A DNA stretch of 64,000 nt from the human T2T-CHM13v2.0 reference genome, Homo sapiens: NCBI RefSeq assembly GCF_009914755.1, contig NC_060935.1. One strand, given 5' to 3'. The first letter of the stretch is position 1, and each line of letters starts with the position of its first letter. Below are positions 43,370 through 60,372 of the stretch, one piece after another. Position numbers and translations under genes: made by a program. The notes under the pieces were generated by a model that saw only the letters and a list, made by a program, of their open reading frames with translations, was not told the DNA's origin and ran no database searches.

Positions 43370-43759
43370 CACATTGGAAACCACGTTTGACACCAATGTC
43401 ACCACGGAGATGAGTGGCCGTAGCATACTCAGCTTGACAGGGAGGCCCACACCTCTGTCCTGGAGACTGGGCCAGTCCAGCCCTCGGCTCCAAGCAGGAG
43501 ACGCCCCCTCAATGGGCAATGGGTATCCCCCTCGAGCCAACGCCAGCAGGTTCATCAACACTGAGTCAGGTCGCTATGTGTACTCCGCCCCTCTGAGAAG
43601 GCAGCTGGCCTCCCGGGGCAGTAGTGTCTGCCATGTGGACGTCTCAGACAAGGCAGGAGATGAGATGGACCTGGAAGGCATCAGCATGGACGCCCCCGGC
43701 TACATGAGCGATGGGGATGTTCTGAGCAAGAACATCCGGACCGATGACATTACAAGCGG
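43370..43759 (+). CDS. NAV2: NAV2 coding exon D (390 nt, symmetric phase 2-2) with LSWRLGQSSPRLQAGDAPS and GYMSD motifs
   Basis: Acceptor ggttttgtttctag|C ACA TTG; donor AGC GG|gtaagt; overlaps ORF 43374-43763. Confidence 0.96.
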
Positions 43760-51749: not shown

Positions 51750-54700
51750 AGCAAGTCACTTGCCCCTAATGCACTGCCATCCTCTTAAAACAGACAGACT
51801 TAAAAGATGCAATGAGGCTCCAAGATGAAGGAACAGGCCCAGAGTAGCCCAATAGGTTGGTGATGGGGCTGGGCCAGATCCTGTCTAGGGTTCTTTTTGT
51901 GCCTCTCTGCTTCCCTCAGTGTCTACTTGCTGACAGCTCTTAATAGTGTATGAATTCACAGAAATCATAAATACTTTTCCCTGTCTGATATTTTCCTTGG
52001 TGTTAAATATCCCAGGCAAGTACAATGGTCTCTTTTCCTAAGCAGCTCTCTAGGTAGAGTGAGCAAGCGCAGAGTCATGCAGAGGGCAAGATTAATTTCC
52101 CCAAGTGCTGCAGAACAAATGACAGCTTTCCCTGCATGGTTGTGATGTTGTCTGACATGGGTGGTTTGGCAGATGGATGGCTCTGGCTACTAATATCAGT
52201 CGTCCCTGATGGCTGGGGCAGCATCAACTGAACACCTCTTCTCCCTCCACGGTGGACCCACTTGATGTACTGAGTGCAGGAAACCTACTAGCCCTTATCG
52301 GCGTCTGGGTAGGCAGTCTCATCAGAGGAGAAAGAATAACTGAGCTGTTAGCCCACTGGAGGAGGAGAAATTCTCCAGCACTCCCATGCGCACTCTGTCC
52401 ACTGCTGGTGACGACAGACTTAGCAGGCTGAGACCTGGATTAAAAAGAGATTTACTGGGGGACAGCCCCATGGAGAAATGAAGTGTGGTCCAGCTTTGAC
52501 GTGGGCAGCCCAGACTGCCACAGATGTCTAATGGCAAATGCTGGCTTAGTAATTTATGGGGAAGAGAGAGAGAAAAAAAAATAAATGGGTGTCTTGTCTT
52601 CTCAGGAAACTAGGGTTGGGCCTCGATTTCTTGGGAATTTCCTAACTAGCTTTGAGGCTTGAATCCCTTCCTGCCTCCCTCCCACCCCTGCATCCTGTGG
52701 GAAGGAAAAAGAAGACGGGAACAAAAGTGGGTGCTTTGGGAGAAGGAAGTCTCAGGCCCTTGTTGAGAGGCCTCCAAATGGGCTGTTCCCTGCCTGCCAC
52801 CCACCCTTACAGATGTCCTCCTCCTCCCATAGCTTTCCAAAGCACAGGGTCTTCTGGCCTTGGACACTGGAATCCTTTCCTTTGGCCTACCTTCTGGGTA
52901 GGCTCCAGGCAAAAGGCAGTAAAATCCCGTGTAAAAAGTGTTTATTGAGTTTGTTATATGTTAAAGACTATGCTAAAAGCACTGAGACCAAGGGAAATGA
53001 GTAAGACCAGGTTGCCAAGATCCTAACGCTGTGAAGGAAAGATCATGCAACAGGGCACTGTGTAGGTCAGCATAAGAGTGGTGAGTGAAGGAGGCCAGTG
53101 AGGAAGTGATGGCTTGTGTTGGGACACAAACACCCTTACCATAAGGTGAGGGTCGGTGGGAAAAGTGTGGGCTGTGGAGTTTGACCTGCAGTCCAGGCTG
53201 GATCCACCACTCTTAGCTGTGTGTCCTTTAGTAACCTATTTAATTTCACTGTGCCCATCTCATAGGTTTGATGTGAGGTTTCAGTGAGATCATGGTGTGT
53301 ACTCTCAGCCCAGTGCCTGGCATGCATGCTTTAAGCACTCAGCAGGGTTCGCTACCATATTGTCCACCACTGTCACTACCAGCAGCAGCGGTGGCACCTT
53401 GAGGACATGTGAGCTGGGCCTCACAGGATAAACAAGGGCCCAGGCAGACCAATAGCCTAAGGACATACAGGCATTGTCATGTTATTATGAGGTTGGTGCT
53501 TGGGTGGGTTGCAGATTCAAGATGGAGGTTGGGAGGCAGTGGGCTCAGGTTAGAAGCTATTCCAGAGTCCACGCAGCAGAGCCACAGGGCTGGGTAAGGC
53601 CAGGGCCAGGGGAACAGATGCACAATGAGTTTAAAGACACTTTTTACATTAAACTCAGCCTGATGTGGGGGCCAGTTACACAGGGGACACAAAGGAGACA
53701 GAGAAGATAAGGATGGCTCCCCAGCTCCAGCCTGTGTTGTAACTGCTGGGAAATAGCTGATGTCTGTCCTCAGCATCCTTTGTCATTTCCTAGCTTTCCC
53801 TCTTGCATGTTAGCACCCACCCTGTGCTCCCAGATTGTCTCAGGCCTCTCAGGCCACCCCCAGACCAAGGTGGGTTGAATGTTTAAGGAGAGTGTAGAAT
53901 ATGATTCCAGGAGCCTTAGGAAAACCCGGTCCCACAGCCTGCCAACTCTTGTCCCCGGAGGAACTCAGGGCGCAGAGGGGAAGAACACCCTGCGTGTCCA
54001 TAGTTCATTGCAACCCAAGGCAGATGGTGGTGAATGTTAACATGAAGAGGCAAAATGTGGGGGCTCCAAAGTGGATCTGAAACTAGAGCAGGTCCTGTGG
54101 GGACCTTGTATGTTCTCACTTTCACATTCTGGGAAGCCCACTGTGCTCATCTGCAAATGAGAATAATAATGCCTGGAGTTATGGTGACAATTGAATGAGG
54201 TGACACAGGCAAAGTGCTAGCCCAGTTCCTGGGGCATTGCAGACCTCACCAAACTGTCCTCATAATGAGGGTGTTTCCTAGATTCAATCTGATATAACCA
54301 AATTCAGCACATCGTGCAGGATAAAAGTACTTAACATATTTCATGCTCTTCCCCGCATGACTCCTCCCCAAGCCCCAAAGGGTAAGAAGCTAGTGAGCCC
54401 TCTCCTTAGACATAAGACCATAACTGATGTTCATGTGGGAAGCATGAACACGATACCCTCCAGCCGACAGCTACCGTGCTGGGCGAGAGAAGCCCGCTGT
54501 GACTAATCATGCTTAGCAAGGTGCTCCTTCTTCCCCCTTCACCATCTGGACTGTCTGCTGTCTTGTTGGAACGGACCTCCTGCCCTTCCGGGGCTCTTCA
54601 CTGGCAAGCAGCATCAACAAAACACAGCCAGCATTTGGGTGTTACTGAGACTGGCCCAGATGTTTAAGGGAAATTCCACCTTAAGTCCATTAATCAACAT

Positions 54701-55235
54701 GACCGAGACTCTGCATGTTAGTTGAATCAAGTTGGCAAGTATTTAATAAGTTCTAGTCAGTTCCAGGCCCCTGACTGTGCCCTGGGGCTTGATGGACAAG
54801 AGGAGGAGTCACTTATTTGTTCTCAAAGCTGGACCGTTTGATACTCTACTTTTTGTGCCAACTTTTGATCATTCAAGGTTCTTACCAGGGGCCCATGAGC
54901 TCACACTTAGTGAAGTGTGCTTACATGTACAGGAAAAACATATTCCATCCTACTCTGGAGCTCCGGGTGGCTTATGGGGGCTGATATGTGTGGCATCCCT
55001 TCTGTGTGCTAGGCATCTTATCTAACTCCCACACTCTGGCTTTATACTGTTTTTATTAATAAAGAAAATGAAGACCCTAGAGGGTAATTGTTACTTAATT
55101 GTCTTAAGCCCATGGAAGAGTTGAAAAAGATGGCCTACCATTTTATTGTCACTTTCCCTTTGTATCCTGGGATTCCAGTGTGACTTTGGTGCTCTTGTTG
55201 CTTTGCTATAGTTGATGCTGTCCTGCATCCTTTAG

Positions 55236-55582
<347 letters not shown>

Positions 55583-55756
55583 AGGGCCACCCTCTTTGCC
55601 TGGAGAGTAGTGGTCTGCAGGCATCTTCTTTCTCTACTCAGTGTTATGCAAATGGACCTGGAAGACAGAGACCCGAGGGCTCACAGACAGTCCCTGAGCC
55701 CCCCTGTTTTTCCTGCTAAGCCTTTGCATAGTTCTCATCTAGAAAACCAAATCCAT

Positions 55757-55943
<187 letters not shown>

Positions 55944-56578
55944 TAGATCACTCAAGTTGAAAATACCCTTCCCAGTATTTTTCAAGGGCCAGCAGCTACA
56001 GAGTGGCTCAACAGATTTATGATGGGAAGGTTGGAGAATACCAAGTTCGAGTTGAGGTGAATATGAAAAGAAACATTTGGACAAGGTTGGGAGTATTTTG
56101 GCCCTGAGACAGTCGGCCCATGTTGAAAGACTCAAAACAGAAGGCTATGTGTGCCTGTGCTCAGATCAAGATAAGAAGCTTAAGTTTTGTTGGGACCTCA
56201 TGAACCTCTCATCAAGCTGTTCTGGAAGAAATGTACAATGGAAATGGAAGAAACTTTAGAGATAGAGGCAGAAGACCTGACTTCACATTTCTTGATTGGC
56301 AGCTGTGACCATAGGGAAATTTCTTCCTTTCCTGAGCCTCCCATGTGTTAAACTGTGGCGCACCTCTCAGGTGTGTGAGGAGGAGTAGAGGAGATGGTGT
56401 TTGTAAAGTGTTTGGCACAGGTAGCATGGTGGCTCCTTTAGCCCTATTGGAGTTACTACATCTGCTTGCCTTTTTAGTCTTTTATTTTATTTAGGACATT
56501 TACGAAGATGATGTCAGGCACAACATCTTATTCTTGAGCACAGTGACCAAATAGCTCCTGGCTGGATCAGAGTTGGTC

Positions 56579-57093
56579 TGTGCATTAGTCAAGGTTCTCC
56601 AGAGAAACGAAACCAATAGGGTGTGTGTAGGTTTGTGTGGGTATGGGTGTATGCATGTGTAGAGGAATTGGTCATGTCATTGAGCAAGTCCAAAATCTTC
56701 AGATGCCCTCGTTGCAGGCCAAGAGGGGATTCTACCTTTAGACTGCCTTTAGACTCGAGCTGCAACATCAACTCCTCCCTGGGTCTCTCAGCCTATTGGC
56801 CTGCCTACTGGCTGAGAGATCCAGAGTAGAGTCAGTGTGGCAGCTCAAATCTAAAGGCAGTCTTGAGGTAGAATCCCCTCTTGCTCAGAGGACATCAGTC
56901 TTTCAAAGCCTTCAACTGATTGGATGAGACCCACCTACATTATGGAGGATGATCTGCTTTACTCAGAGTCTACTGATTTAACCGTCAGTCTCATCTAAAA
57001 TATTCCTTTGCAACAATATCTGGACTCTAGTGTTTGACCAAATATCTGGGTATTGTGGCCCAGCCAAGTTGACACATAAAATCAGCCATCCCA
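56579..57093 (-). mobile_element. MLT2 (ERVL) LTR with an internal inverted duplication
   Basis: tagtcaaggttctccagagaaac...gccttcaactgattggatgag...cccagccaagttgacacataaaat. Confidence 0.85.
56720..56883. repeat. Inverted repeat: 74-bp arms, 16-nt loop
   Basis: Arms 56720-56793 and 56810-56883 align without gaps; 62 of 74 Watson-Crick pairs by manual count. Confidence 0.93.
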
Positions 57094-57819
57094 GCCTGTA
57101 AGCAGGCCTTGCCATATGATCAGTGGGAGTGAATCATGTAAGGGAGGAGGCAACTCACCTGTGGCCCAGGGTCAACACATCAGCTTTAATAAACATCTGC
57201 AAGGGCTCAAAGCTAACGCACCCTGCCTGGGATGTGACCACAGATCAAGACTCTATGCCTGCCTTGGAAGAATCATTGCATCCCTTCCTTCGTCCCCTGG
57301 GTCCTGGTAAGAAATCTCCCTGAGAAATGGAGGTTTTGACCTTTCCTCTTAATCCTGAAATAACTGCAGAGTGAGACAGACACACTGGCATGGACACCTC
57401 CAGAGAGCTGATGATTTTTGAGACCCAAAAATGAAATAAGATTCTGAGCCTAAGGAGAGGCCCCAAGTTTGTCTCCAGAGCCTTCTACCTATAAATCAAG
57501 CCCACATTCACTTCTTGATCTTGGGAACAGTGGGAGACAGGGTCTGTGGTTATCTCCACTGCATCACTGGAGTCTTGTATCCCTTTCCCAGAGCTTTGTG
57601 CTTGTAATCATCCAGTCATCTGTTTCGAAATTAGAAAGCTCACATACTTGAGCAGTGAAGTTTAAAGGGTGAAGTCAACTCAAGTTGTCAGAAACATGGG
57701 ACGAAATAAATGTGGTGTTGGCTCTATAGAGAAGGGGGAAGGCCACAGAGGACTCAACAGCGCCTGCTAACCCATGACTTTCTGCCAGTCCTGCTGTGGT
57801 GGCACTGTAATTCATAGTC

Positions 57820-58060
57820 GCTAACTGCTTTGGAGAGTTTATTATGTGCTAGGCACTGTGTTGAGCTCTTTACATGCTTTTTCTCACTTACTCTTTCCAC
57901 TAGTTATTTGCAATAGAGACTGTTTCTCGTCCCAGTTTTACAATCAAGGGGGCCAAAGCTCTGAGAGGTGAAGTTACTTGGCCGGGCCACACAGACAGTA
58001 ACTGGTGGAAGCAAGCATTCAGCCAGGCTGATTCAAAGCCCGGGATCCCAAGCACCCTAT
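57820..58060 (-). mobile_element. MIR SINE
   Basis: tatgtgctaggcactgtgttgagctctttacatg...gagaggtgaagttacttggcc. Confidence 0.75.
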
Positions 58061-59162
58061 AGGATGGCAGTTTACTATAGCTAGTCCCCACACTCTGAAT
58101 ATCCGAATATATGGAAGGCAAGACCAAAAAGGAAGAGTGTGCACCTTCTGAACATCGGAAGCCCTGGATACTCCCAGTGCCATTTGAAGGAGCTATGAAG
58201 GGACCTGAAAGTGCCATTTGGAAGGGTAAGGTACAGAGGAGTGAGTTATGTAGGAACTGAAAAAAATAGCTGGAGAATGCTTGTGCAAGGACCATGGAGG
58301 CTGTGGCAGGGGCAGAGGCAGATACTTCTCTTTGCCTCGAAAGCAATATTATGTGTTTAATTTCAATTAAATGTCACAGGTCTTTACTGTAGCATGAGAA
58401 ACACTTGTGTCAACATTCCCCAGTGCTTATGCAGAAAGTGAATGGGGGCAAAACTGGTTCTCTGCGTGCTGGAAATGAAAACCGATGAGGTGCTCAGAGG
58501 CAGGAAAGTTCAGATCAAGAGCCAATTCTGCACAGTGATTTACCGAAGCGCCTTACCGCGATGTGGCTTCCTGTTGTTAAATCTCATGAAAGTGGGCATT
58601 TCAGTCACCTATGGTTTCTAGACATGATACCCGAATTTCTCTGAGGAAATTCCACTCCCTCAGCCCCTCACCCACTGCAAACCCAAACAAAACCCACAAT
58701 TACAAGCTCAGCGCCACCCTGAGACCTCAGAATTGTGCACGGCAAGTTAGAGCTTTATTAATCGAGTGACTTTTGCCTTACTCTTTGGGAGTTGTTAATT
58801 AAAACCACTCAACCATTGAGTTGAGAGAGAGGGAGAGAGACAGAGATTGAGGACAGCTAACAGACTGGATTTTCTCCCTCCTTTGCAAGCTGGTGTAGCT
58901 ATTTTAGAAGCTGACACGGACGTTACAGTTGACTAAACCATGCACCAGATTTGTATGTGAGGCTCCTTGGGAACAGCTTTCATTTAATGCCCTGTAGCCA
59001 GGCCCTCAGGGTACAAAGAACCTGCCTAGCCTCTGACCAAGTATATATAACGGTTAATAATAATGACCATTGTAATAATATTAACACGACTAGCTACCGT
59101 TTATTGAACACTTTTAAATGCCAGGCACTGTGCTTTATATACATTATCTCTTTTCATCCTCA

Positions 59163-59809
<647 letters not shown>

Positions 59810-60372
59810 TAGGAACTCCTCTTCCCATTCTCCTGTTGAGGACACAGGGATTTGGGGGGGCGGGGCCACTGGTAACTTGCCTTAAGGTTGCAGAGGTGGT
59901 GAGCTAGGGAGCTGGGACTCAAACTTGGACAGCCTGACTTCAGAGCCTGAATTCAACCACTCATTTCAGGACTTTCACTGAAGCTGTGTACACATGTCTA
60001 AAATGTAATCGCTCTTCTTTCCCCCAAACCTGTTTTTCTTCTGTGTTTCCACCATCCATTTTTTTTTCCCACACCCAGAACCCAGAATCTTAGACTCTTC
60101 CATTCTCTTGTTCATGGAACGCCAGTCACTGAATTTGATGGATTCCATTTCTTAAGTATCTCTTACTATGGTTTTTCTCTCATCTTGCTGCTAATATTTC
60201 TCACCCAGATGATGACAATTCATCCTTTCACTAATTGCCTTTCTTCTGATCCCAATGCCCATCCAACAAATCCATTCCACACATTGGTGAGAGAGATCTT
60301 TCTAGAGCACAAATCTGATTATATTCTCTGCTTACATTCCTCAGTGGCTCTTCACTGCCTGCTGAGAAAACT

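What the first reader, a model, noticed from the sequence alone, without database searches (positions are those of the whole stretch)
56720..56883. 164-nt fold-back hairpin made by inverted duplication inside an MLT2 LTR
Seen: the arm caagaggggattctacct...ctctcagcc (56720-56793) pairs without gaps with ggctgagag...aggtagaatcccctcttg (56810-56883) around a 16-nt loop. By manual count there are 62 Watson-Crick pairs plus 3 G-U on the sense RNA; on the antisense RNA six C-A mismatches become G-U, giving 68 of 74 paired. The outermost 18 bp are perfect. From recall, the MLT2 consensus has only one copy of this segment, so the left arm would be a locus-specific fold-back. Inference: a non-Alu long dsRNA hairpin in NAV2 pre-mRNA that could be a Drosha/Dicer or ADAR substrate (A-C mismatches are favoured editing sites), or a DNA cruciform kept similar by arm-to-arm conversion.
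Basis: partly seen in the sequence, partly recalled or inferred. Interest (0 to 1): 0.7.

Follow-up and report, generated by a model that had tools for sequence, protein, structure and literature searches.

The report
Fold-back duplication in old ERVL LTR
An ancient solo retroviral LTR in a NAV2 intron carries a one-off 82-base inverted copy of part of itself, which makes a strong predicted hairpin but looks like an ordinary old replication or repair scar with no sign of function.

Summary
The symmetry in fact runs to the axis: two 82-nt arms, 56720-56801 and 56802-56883, 66 of 82 identical. Predicted RNA folds are -116 kcal/mol (sense) and -120.9 (antisense), z about -15 to -16.

The host is a solo LTR, 56581-57093, with single-copy flanks. 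It matches loci that print labels MLT2B1 and MLT2B3 and none labelled MLT1 or LTR16, so "MLT2" (ERVL) holds. The subfamily is undetermined.

None of 29 genomic relatives has a second, inverted copy, and none folds below -65.4 kcal/mol. The left arm is a locus-specific inverted insertion placed exactly at the 5' edge of its source, with no spacer. This fits a template-switch or fold-back event, a known kind (PMC10710096).

The arms differ by 19.5%. The event falls at roughly 0.5-0.6 of the LTR's age, about 30-70 Myr, a rough estimate.

No miRNA, Rfam or RefSeq feature lies there. Editing, small RNAs and orthologues could not be tested. Most likely a neutral scar.

The parts
56581..57093 (+). 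Solo LTR of ERVL MLT2 type, 513 bp (431 bp without the inserted arm), sense to NAV2, in the intron after the exon at 43370-43759
   Evidence: Matches of 29 relatives start at about 56580-56581 and end at about 57093-57094. It begins TG and ends CA. Both flanks are single-copy in the genome. Collinear matches to print-labelled MLT2B1 and MLT2B3 loci.
56576..56580 (.). Possible target-site duplication, left copy (GTCTG)
   Evidence: Read. 4 of 5 bases equal to 57094-57098. That ERVL elements make 5-bp duplications is recalled.
57094..57098 (.). Possible target-site duplication, right copy (GCCTG)
   Evidence: Read. 4 of 5 bases equal to 56576-56580.
56581..56719 (+). 5' part of the LTR, up to the insertion point. 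Includes a TG-rich variable stretch at about 56620-56665.
   Evidence: In relatives this part runs straight on into segment X.
56720..56801 (-). Left arm: inverted (reverse-complement) copy of segment X, a locus-specific insertion of 82 nt
   Evidence: It matches relatives on the opposite strand, at the same place as the right arm, in 27 of 29 loci. The other 2 of 29 give no hit, and none of 29 has a second copy. Pairwise alignments place it as an insertion.
56802..56883 (+). Right arm: segment X in its normal place and orientation in the LTR, the source of the copy
   Evidence: Contiguous with the rest of the LTR in all 29 relatives.
56720..56883 (+). Predicted 164-nt hairpin (both arms)
56884..57093 (+). 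Remaining 3' part of the LTR
   Evidence: Mean identity to 29 relatives 0.777.

Best explanation
A solo LTR of the ERVL MLT2 group inserted into what is now a NAV2 intron in an early placental-mammal ancestor. Much later, one DNA replication or repair error of the template-switch / fold-back kind copied 82 nt of the LTR (segment X, now 56802-56883) in reverse complement. The copy was laid down immediately 5' of its source (now 56720-56801). There is no spacer and no visible loss of LTR sequence.

When new, this was a perfect 164-nt palindrome. Since then the two arms have drifted apart to 80.5% identity.

Shown: the structure, its uniqueness among relatives, the LTR type, and the relative date.

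Inferred: the mechanism (interstrand template switch or break-primed fold-back), the absolute date (about 30-70 Myr), and neutrality. The hairpin is necessarily transcribed within NAV2 pre-mRNA and may be edited passively by ADAR, but nothing indicates a selected function.
For: Geometry:
- The arms are gapless, of equal length, and meet at the axis.
- The axis and the left junction both sit at the point where the 5' part of the LTR normally joins segment X in relatives.

Uniqueness:
- Genome search: 3542 first-look candidates, 39 scored. Only the locus itself reaches 100% identity; the next best is 80%.
- 29 of 29 saved relatives carry one copy of X.
- The lowest fold energy of any 164-nt stretch in the 29 relatives is -65.4 kcal/mol, against -116 here.

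Local origin of the copy:
- The left arm shares 5 of the 17 right-arm states that under 25% of relatives hold. No relative shares more than 4.
- The right arm shares 5 of the 9 rare left-arm states. The maximum among relatives is 3.

Decay looks neutral:
- 16 differences in 82 positions, 10 transitions and 6 transversions.
- Of the 10 transitions, only 3 keep a G-U pair on the sense RNA (binomial p 0.34).
- The run of 18 perfect pairs has p = 0.19.

No annotated function:
- No Rfam family reaches its gathering score. Best over the hairpin is mir-28 at 21.9 bits against 64.
- No RefSeq miRNA, lncRNA or functional element lies in 54000-60000.

Known mechanism in print:
- Template-switch mutations create whole hairpins in one event, over 6,000 in the primate lineage, with inverted fragments up to 83 bases (PMC10710096: abstract and section 5).
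- Fold-back insertions at breaks range from 2 to about 150 bp (PMC11724301: passages).
Against: - No orthologous sequences could be read, so the ancestral empty state is inferred from paralogues only.
- Of the 16 arm differences, the left-arm state is the commoner one among relatives at 11, the right-arm state at 3, and 2 are unclear. This asymmetry (binomial p 0.057) is not predicted by equal neutral decay and is unexplained.
- The 5 positions where both arms share a rare state could be compensatory double changes or conversion rather than changes that predate the duplication.
- No clear junction microhomology can be read after this much divergence, so the mechanism is not pinned down.
- Editing and small-RNA data were not available, so function is not excluded.
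- Only 39 of 3542 candidates were scored, so a rare subfamily carrying the inverted copy is not strictly excluded.
Confidence: 0.8

Rival explanations
1. The hairpin is a working RNA element of NAV2 pre-mRNA. It would be a long dsRNA that ADAR edits, or that Dicer (less likely Drosha) cuts into small RNAs, and selection has kept it paired.
For: - Very stable predicted fold on both strands, and it persists in context.
- It is intronic and sense to an expressed host gene (annotation given with the finding).
- Print shows that intronic sense template-switch hairpins can become miRNAs (PMC10710096, passages).
- An MLT2B1-labelled LTR holds the annotated MIR5694, whose hairpin is also an inverted repeat.
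- Both arms share 5 rare states, which could be compensatory changes.
Against: - Stem of 74-82 bp with a 4-nt apical loop. This is outside the 30-55 base stem range that PMC10710096 used for miRNA-like hairpins and the roughly 35-bp / 10-nt-loop preference it cites.
- No Rfam or RefSeq RNA lies here.
- 13 of 82 pairs are broken on the sense RNA, and the transitions do not favour G-U on the sense strand: 3 of 10.
- No paper holds both NAV2 and MLT2. None of the 15 papers listed mentions NAV2.
Confidence: 0.08
2. Two separate MLT2 fragments lie head to head. The left arm would come from a second, independently inserted element rather than from a local copy.
For: - The left arm's best relative is 83.8% identical to it, slightly more than the 80.5% between the arms.
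- The left arm keeps more family-typical states than the right arm, 11 against 3.
Against: - The inverted piece covers exactly the 82 nt that adjoin it, with no spacer. The LTR continues in normal order on both sides.
- The arms share more rare states with each other than with any of 29 relatives.
- An isolated 82-nt internal LTR fragment is not a product of retroviral integration (established knowledge).
Confidence: 0.03
3. It is a DNA palindrome or cruciform whose arms are kept alike by repeated arm-to-arm gene conversion.
For: - Single-stranded DNA fold of -60.1 kcal/mol, z -12.6.
- The outer 18 bp are perfect.
- Mismatches are somewhat denser at the centre: 4 of 9 central pairs against 12 of 73 (Fisher p 0.068).
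Against: - The arms differ at 16 of 82 positions, spread along the arms.
- A perfect run of 18 or more is expected in 19% of random placements.
- The divergence is about what the relative dating predicts without any conversion.
Confidence: 0.03
4. The inverted repeat is already part of the LTR subfamily's own sequence, so it is not a locus-specific event.
For: Only 39 of 3542 first-look candidates were scored. The subfamily could not be named, for want of a repeat library.
Against: - 0 of 29 relatives (the closest found) have it.
- 0 of 2 MLT2B3-labelled loci have any inverted repeat of 18 nt or more. The MLT2B1-labelled locus has only a different 22-nt one.
Confidence: 0.02

Closest known systems
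Template-switch mutations (TSMs) that create hairpins in one step (Monttinen, Frilander and Loytynoja 2023, PMC10710096)
   Same: An inverted copy of adjacent sequence, laid down in one event, gives a perfect stem. It sits in an intron, sense to the host gene, as do 81 of their 99 intragenic cases. Its size is within what they report: an inferred event of up to 83 bases.
   Different: The 82-nt stem lies outside their 30-55 base 'miRNA-like' class. No parent/child phylogenetic reconstruction was possible here. Whether this locus is in their datasets is unknown, because supplements were closed.
Fold-back templated inverted insertions at double-strand breaks (PMC11724301, yeast)
   Same: A short inverted duplication of the sequence next to the break, 2 to about 150 bp, captured by the other end.
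   Different: Their events use inverted microhomologies and leave a loop or spacer (41 nt in their example). Here there is no spacer, and no microhomology is readable. The organism is also different.
MIR5694, an annotated human miRNA inside an MLT2B1-labelled LTR (PMC10379226 Table 2)
   Same: Same LTR group. Its hairpin is an inverted repeat within the LTR (L035 901-922 / 955-976, 22 nt, 91% complementary). No such repeat was found in the 10 relatives of that LTR that were scanned.
   Different: Arms of 22 nt with a 32-nt loop, which is of miRNA size, and it is annotated as a gene. It lies in a different segment of the LTR, just upstream of segment X.
Inverted-repeat Alu pairs, the usual long intronic dsRNA and ADAR substrate in human (for example PMC4053975, abstract seen in the listing)
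   Same: Intramolecular dsRNA in an intron, formed by two inverted copies of a repeat.
   Different: A single element with an internal duplication, not two insertions. The stem is about 80 bp rather than about 300 bp. It is not an Alu. No editing data were seen.

Membership tests
ERVL LTR of the MLT2 group | Sequence homology to copies that print names as MLT2 | tested here: met
   The window LTR hits the MIR5694 locus (MLT2B1 in PMC10379226 Table 2) in three collinear blocks. It hits the MIR1269B locus (MLT2B3) at both termini. 29 of 29 relatives hit the MLT2B1 locus and 25 of 29 the MLT2B3 locus.
ERVL LTR of the MLT2 group | No homology to other LTR groups named in print (MLT1C, MLT1H2, MLT1M, LTR16D1, LTR16A1, LTR16D2, LTR86B1) | tested here: met
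   For the window LTR, only (TG)n simple-repeat hits to the MLT1C and LTR16A1 loci, and nothing else. 0 of 29 relatives hit the three MLT1 loci or the LTR16D1 locus. 3, 1 and 7 of 29 hit the LTR86B1, LTR16A1 and LTR16D2 loci. I take those hits to come from unrelated insertions in the segments. That is inference and was not checked.
ERVL LTR of the MLT2 group | LTR termini TG...CA and a short target-site duplication | tested here: met
   Starts TG at 56581 and ends CA at 57093. The 5-bp flanks are equal at 4 of 5 positions. The expected 5-bp length is recalled.
ERVL LTR of the MLT2 group | Best match to one MLT2 subfamily entry in Dfam/Repbase | not testable with these tools
   No repeat library was on hand. 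Only the termini and one core block match the B1/B3-labelled loci, so it is not B1 or B3. The subfamily is left open.
Template-switch / fold-back inverted duplication | Reverse-complement copy adjacent to its source, explained by one event without gaps | tested here: met
   82 + 82 nt, gapless, no spacer.
Template-switch / fold-back inverted duplication | Absent from the ancestral state | tested here: inconclusive
   Absent from 29 of 29 paralogous copies. Orthologues, which are the proper test, were not available.
pri-miRNA / miRNA gene | Stem of about 35 bp with an apical loop of 10 nt or more (as cited in PMC10710096) | tested here: not met
   Stem of 74-82 bp. 4-nt terminal loop in the minimum-energy fold.
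pri-miRNA / miRNA gene | Known family or annotated gene | tested here: not met
   No Rfam hit reaches its gathering score. There is no RefSeq miRNA in the window. The nearest in NAV2, MIR4486 and MIR4694, lie more than 200 kb away.
pri-miRNA / miRNA gene | Small-RNA reads with defined ends | not testable with these tools
ADAR substrate | Long intramolecular dsRNA within a transcript | tested here: met
   Predicted only: -116 kcal/mol, 65 of 74 pairs on the sense strand. It lies in a NAV2 intron, sense strand.
ADAR substrate | Observed A-to-I sites | not testable with these tools
   No editing tables or reads were available. Literature searches gave nothing for this locus.

The most novel reading that the evidence does not exclude
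The fold-back made a long-hairpin RNA locus inside NAV2 that is in real use. It would be hyper-edited by ADAR or diced into endogenous small RNAs in neurons. The five rare states shared by both arms would then be compensatory changes that kept the stem. That would make it a non-Alu, LTR-born proto-gene older than most template-switch miRNAs.
Probability: 0.05. Interest if true: 0.55.

Novelty: new member of a known kind. Interest (0 to 1): 0.2.

Why it matters
Small on its own. It is a clean, datable example of a template-switch or fold-back duplication of unusual length (82 nt, no spacer) inside an ancient ERVL LTR. It produced one of the longest non-Alu intramolecular dsRNA stems one is likely to meet in an intron.

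It could serve as a natural test case for three questions: how fast long palindromes decay in the human lineage, whether ADAR edits old LTR hairpins, and how LTR-borne hairpins such as MIR5694 begin. If orthologues showed selection on pairing, its interest would rise.

Tried and rejected
1. Family name. My own first recall was that the LTR is an MLT1 (MaLR) element. I tested this against loci that print assigns to MLT1C, MLT1H2 and MLT1M. They gave no homology, so I dropped it.

2. First relatives-versus-named-loci table (second table). It used whole loci with 500-nt flanks and was contaminated by unrelated repeats in the flanks. I replaced it with LTR-only segments.

3. Per-site polarity of the arm differences. 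A free MAFFT alignment put gaps between the two arms. Separate pairwise alignments to each arm gave contradictory registers. I discarded both in favour of adding the relatives to the fixed gapless arm pair. The pairwise distances for arms versus relatives (p about 0.14) are also register-optimistic. I did not use them for dating. Only the arm-to-arm figure from that call is used.

4. Rfam, the RefSeq tables and the literature gave nothing for this interval.

5. Junction microhomology was looked for by eye. Nothing unambiguous was found.

6. Could not be done here: orthologue comparison, editing tables, small-RNA and CLIP data. Supplements are closed, so the locus lists of PMC10710096 (Datasets S1/S2), which could show whether this locus or MIR5694 is a listed template-switch event, were not seen.

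7. Subfamily naming needs a repeat library, not inner genes. I looked at no inner genes, listed no reading frames and translated nothing.

Full report
**Observation.**
- A script count of 56720-56793 against 56810-56883, without gaps, gives 62 Watson-Crick pairs, 3 G-U on the sense RNA, 6 C-A/A-C and 3 other mismatches.
- The outer 18 pairs are perfect. The first mismatch is at 56738.
- The repeat finder extends the symmetry to 56720-56800 / 56803-56883: 81 nt, 81% complementary, 2 nt between the arms.
- When relatives are added, both central stretches align to the same LTR segment.
- Fold energies: RNA sense -116.0 kcal/mol (z -15.3; 0 of 200 shuffles as good), RNA antisense -120.9 (z -16.0), single-stranded DNA -60.1 (z -12.6).
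- The hairpin survives in a 401-nt context.
- It is the only inverted repeat of 40 nt or more within 300 nt in the 64-kb window.

**What the host element is.**
- A genome search with window 56560-57110 found 3542 first-look candidates. 39 were scored, and only the locus itself reached 100% identity.
- Matches of the 29 saved relatives begin at about 56580-56581 and end at about 57093-57094.
- The element begins TG and ends CA, and is flanked by GTCTG and GCCTG, equal at 4 of 5 positions.
- Both flanks (55960-56575 and 57096-57700) are single-copy in the genome. So this is a solo LTR of 513 bp, or 431 bp without the extra arm.
- RefSeq's masked-repeat table does not mark it.

**Family.** No repeat library was on hand, so I anchored the name in print.
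- Papers assign miR-558 to MLT1C and miR-3927 to MLT1H2 (PMC10671384, table text seen through find; also PMC4330264, one passage).
- mir-1246 is assigned to MLT1M (PMC4482582, figure legend).
- miR-1269a/b is assigned to MLT2B3, miR-5694 to MLT2B1, miR-3681 to LTR16D1, miR-4288 to LTR86B1, miR-3670 to LTR16A1 and miR-3200 to LTR16D2 (PMC10379226 Table 2, seen through find).
- I fetched these loci from the reference and compared them with the three pieces of the window LTR.
- The MLT2B1 locus is hit in three collinear blocks: the 5' end, the core and the 3' end. The MLT2B3 locus of MIR1269B is hit at both termini, and in both loci the miRNA lies inside the matched LTR. The first 40 nt align plainly.
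- The MLT1 and LTR16 loci give only (TG)n hits or nothing.
- Of the 29 relatives, 29 hit the MLT2B1 locus, 25 the MIR1269B locus and 13 the MIR1269A locus. None hit the three MLT1 loci or the LTR16D1 locus. 3, 1 and 7 hit the LTR86B1, LTR16A1 and LTR16D2 loci. I take these last hits to come from unrelated insertions, but did not check.
My own first recall (MLT1) was wrong. The subfamily is neither B1 nor B3 and stays open.
- Print places MLT2 LTRs with HERV-L/ERVL, class ERV3 (PMC5753468 Table 4).

**The fold-back is locus-specific.**
- In every one of the 29 relatives the 3' piece (56802-57110) matches once.
- The left arm matches the same place on the opposite strand in 27 of 29. The other two, L027 and L028, give no left-arm hit. 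None has a second copy.
- In pairwise alignments of 9 relatives, the 5' part of the LTR runs straight into segment X. The window's left arm appears as an insertion exactly at that joint.
- No 164-nt stretch of any relative folds below -65.4 kcal/mol, with a median of -52.3.
- The two MLT2B3-labelled loci have no inverted repeat of 18 nt or more.
- The arms are each other's nearest kin by rare states. The left arm shares 5 of the 17 right-arm states that fewer than 25% of relatives hold (maximum among relatives 4). The right arm shares 5 of 9 rare left-arm states (maximum among relatives 3).
- Together with the exact geometry, this excludes a second independent insertion for practical purposes.

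**Age of the LTR.**
- Mean identity between the window's 3' part and the relatives is 0.777, and 0.777 among the relatives themselves. The Jukes-Cantor distance is 0.265, or 0.13 per lineage.
- Print gives HERV-L (MLT2) an origin more than 80 Myr ago, with 25,000 copies (PMC1794541 Table 1).
- Print lists MLT2B1-B4 and MLT2D as eutherian-wide and only MLT2A1/A2 as primate-specific (PMC4419796 Table 1).
- With recalled neutral rates of about 1.2-2.2 x 10^-9 per site per year, 0.13 corresponds to roughly 60-110 Myr.

**Age of the duplication.**
- The arms differ at 16 of 82 positions. The Jukes-Cantor distance is 0.226, or 0.113 per arm.
- Segment X evolves faster than the rest of the LTR. Identity among relatives is 0.68 there, a half-distance of 0.209.
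- By distance, the event lies at about 0.54 of the copies' age.
- By counts, it lies at 8 of 13, about 0.62. This takes 8 changes per arm after the event against 5 shared rare states before it (Clopper-Pearson 0.32-0.86).
- That puts the event at very roughly 30-70 Myr, within or just before the primate lineage. The estimate rests on few sites, on paralogues chosen for similarity to the query, and on recalled rates.

**Mechanism.** This part is inferred.
- An inverted copy laid directly beside its template, with no spacer, is what an interstrand template switch during replication produces. An intrastrand fold-back needs a loop.
- Print describes such template-switch mutations as creating whole hairpins in a single event. 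It reports over 6,000 suitable hairpins in the primate lineage and an inferred intermolecular event of up to 83 bases (PMC10710096: abstract and introduction; section 5 read whole).
- Fold-back priming at a break followed by end joining gives inverted insertions of 2 to about 150 bp in yeast. Those leave a loop between inverted microhomologies (PMC11724301, passages).
- I could read no clear microhomology at the junctions.

**Function.**
- Nothing is annotated here. No Rfam family reaches its threshold: over the hairpin, mir-28 scores 21.9 bits against 64, mir-4677 19.6 against 80, and mir-9193 18.3 against 55.
- There is no RefSeq miRNA, lncRNA or functional element in 54000-60000. The miRNAs within NAV2 lie elsewhere.
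- The stem is far longer than a pri-miRNA stem, and outside the 30-55 base class that PMC10710096 counted as miRNA-like. Drosha processing is therefore unlikely.
- As an 80-bp intronic dsRNA it is a plausible passive ADAR target (established knowledge), but I could not test this.
- The decay pattern shows no sign of selection for pairing. 13 of 82 pairs are broken on the sense RNA, and only 3 of 10 transitions keep G-U there.
- It shows no sign of conversion either. A perfect run of 18 has p = 0.19.

**Results against a simple neutral picture.**
- The right arm carries the non-family state at 11 of the 16 differences, the left arm at 3, and 2 are unclear (p 0.057).
- Mismatches are somewhat denser at the centre, 4 of 9 against 12 of 73 (p 0.068).
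- Both results are unexplained and may be chance.

**Print.** No paper holds both 'NAV2' and 'MLT2'. Of 34 papers holding at least four of NAV2 / A-to-I / intronic / hairpin / non-Alu, none of the 15 listed mentions NAV2. Supplementary lists were closed.

**Verdict.** The feature is real and correctly described. It lies in an old ERVL MLT2-type solo LTR and is a locus-specific fold-back duplication of a known mutational kind, tens of millions of years old. It is most likely a neutral scar. Its interest is modest unless orthologues or RNA data show otherwise.

Noticed in passing
L035 901-976 (G000 chr14:61,648,972-61,649,047, MIR5694): The annotated MIR5694 hairpin is itself an inverted repeat inside an LTR that print labels MLT2B1. 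Its arms are 22 nt, 91% complementary, with 32 nt between them. The 3' arm lies in the normal LTR sequence just upstream of segment X. 38 of 39 scored relatives of that LTR start matching after the 5' arm. None of the 10 relatives scanned has such a repeat. It may have arisen by the same kind of event as the NAV2 hairpin. miR-5694 is not mentioned in the main text of PMC10710096.
   Followed up: partly
window 56738-56865 (the 16 positions where the arms differ): The decay is lopsided. The left (copied) arm keeps the state common among relatives at 11 positions, the right (source) arm at 3, and 2 are unclear (binomial p 0.057). No mutational signature was evident.
   Followed up: partly
window about 56620-56665, and the same LTR position in L004, L006, L016, L023: The LTR has a variable stretch that is TG-rich here. 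Relatives carry different simple repeats at the same place: (TG)n in L006, GA-rich in L016, GATA/GACA in L023, GATT in L004. It looks like a microsatellite-prone spot of this LTR group.
   Followed up: no
window 56581-57093: RefSeq's masked-repeat table (stretches of 100 bases or more) does not mark this 513-bp LTR, although the genome holds thousands of relatives.
   Followed up: no
window 55500-55580 and 55803-55917: Weak Metazoa_SRP hits below the gathering score (18.6 and 48.4 bits against 70) coincide with masked repeats at 55239-55575 and 55812-55940. They are presumably Alu fragments. That reading is recalled knowledge and was not tested.
   Followed up: no
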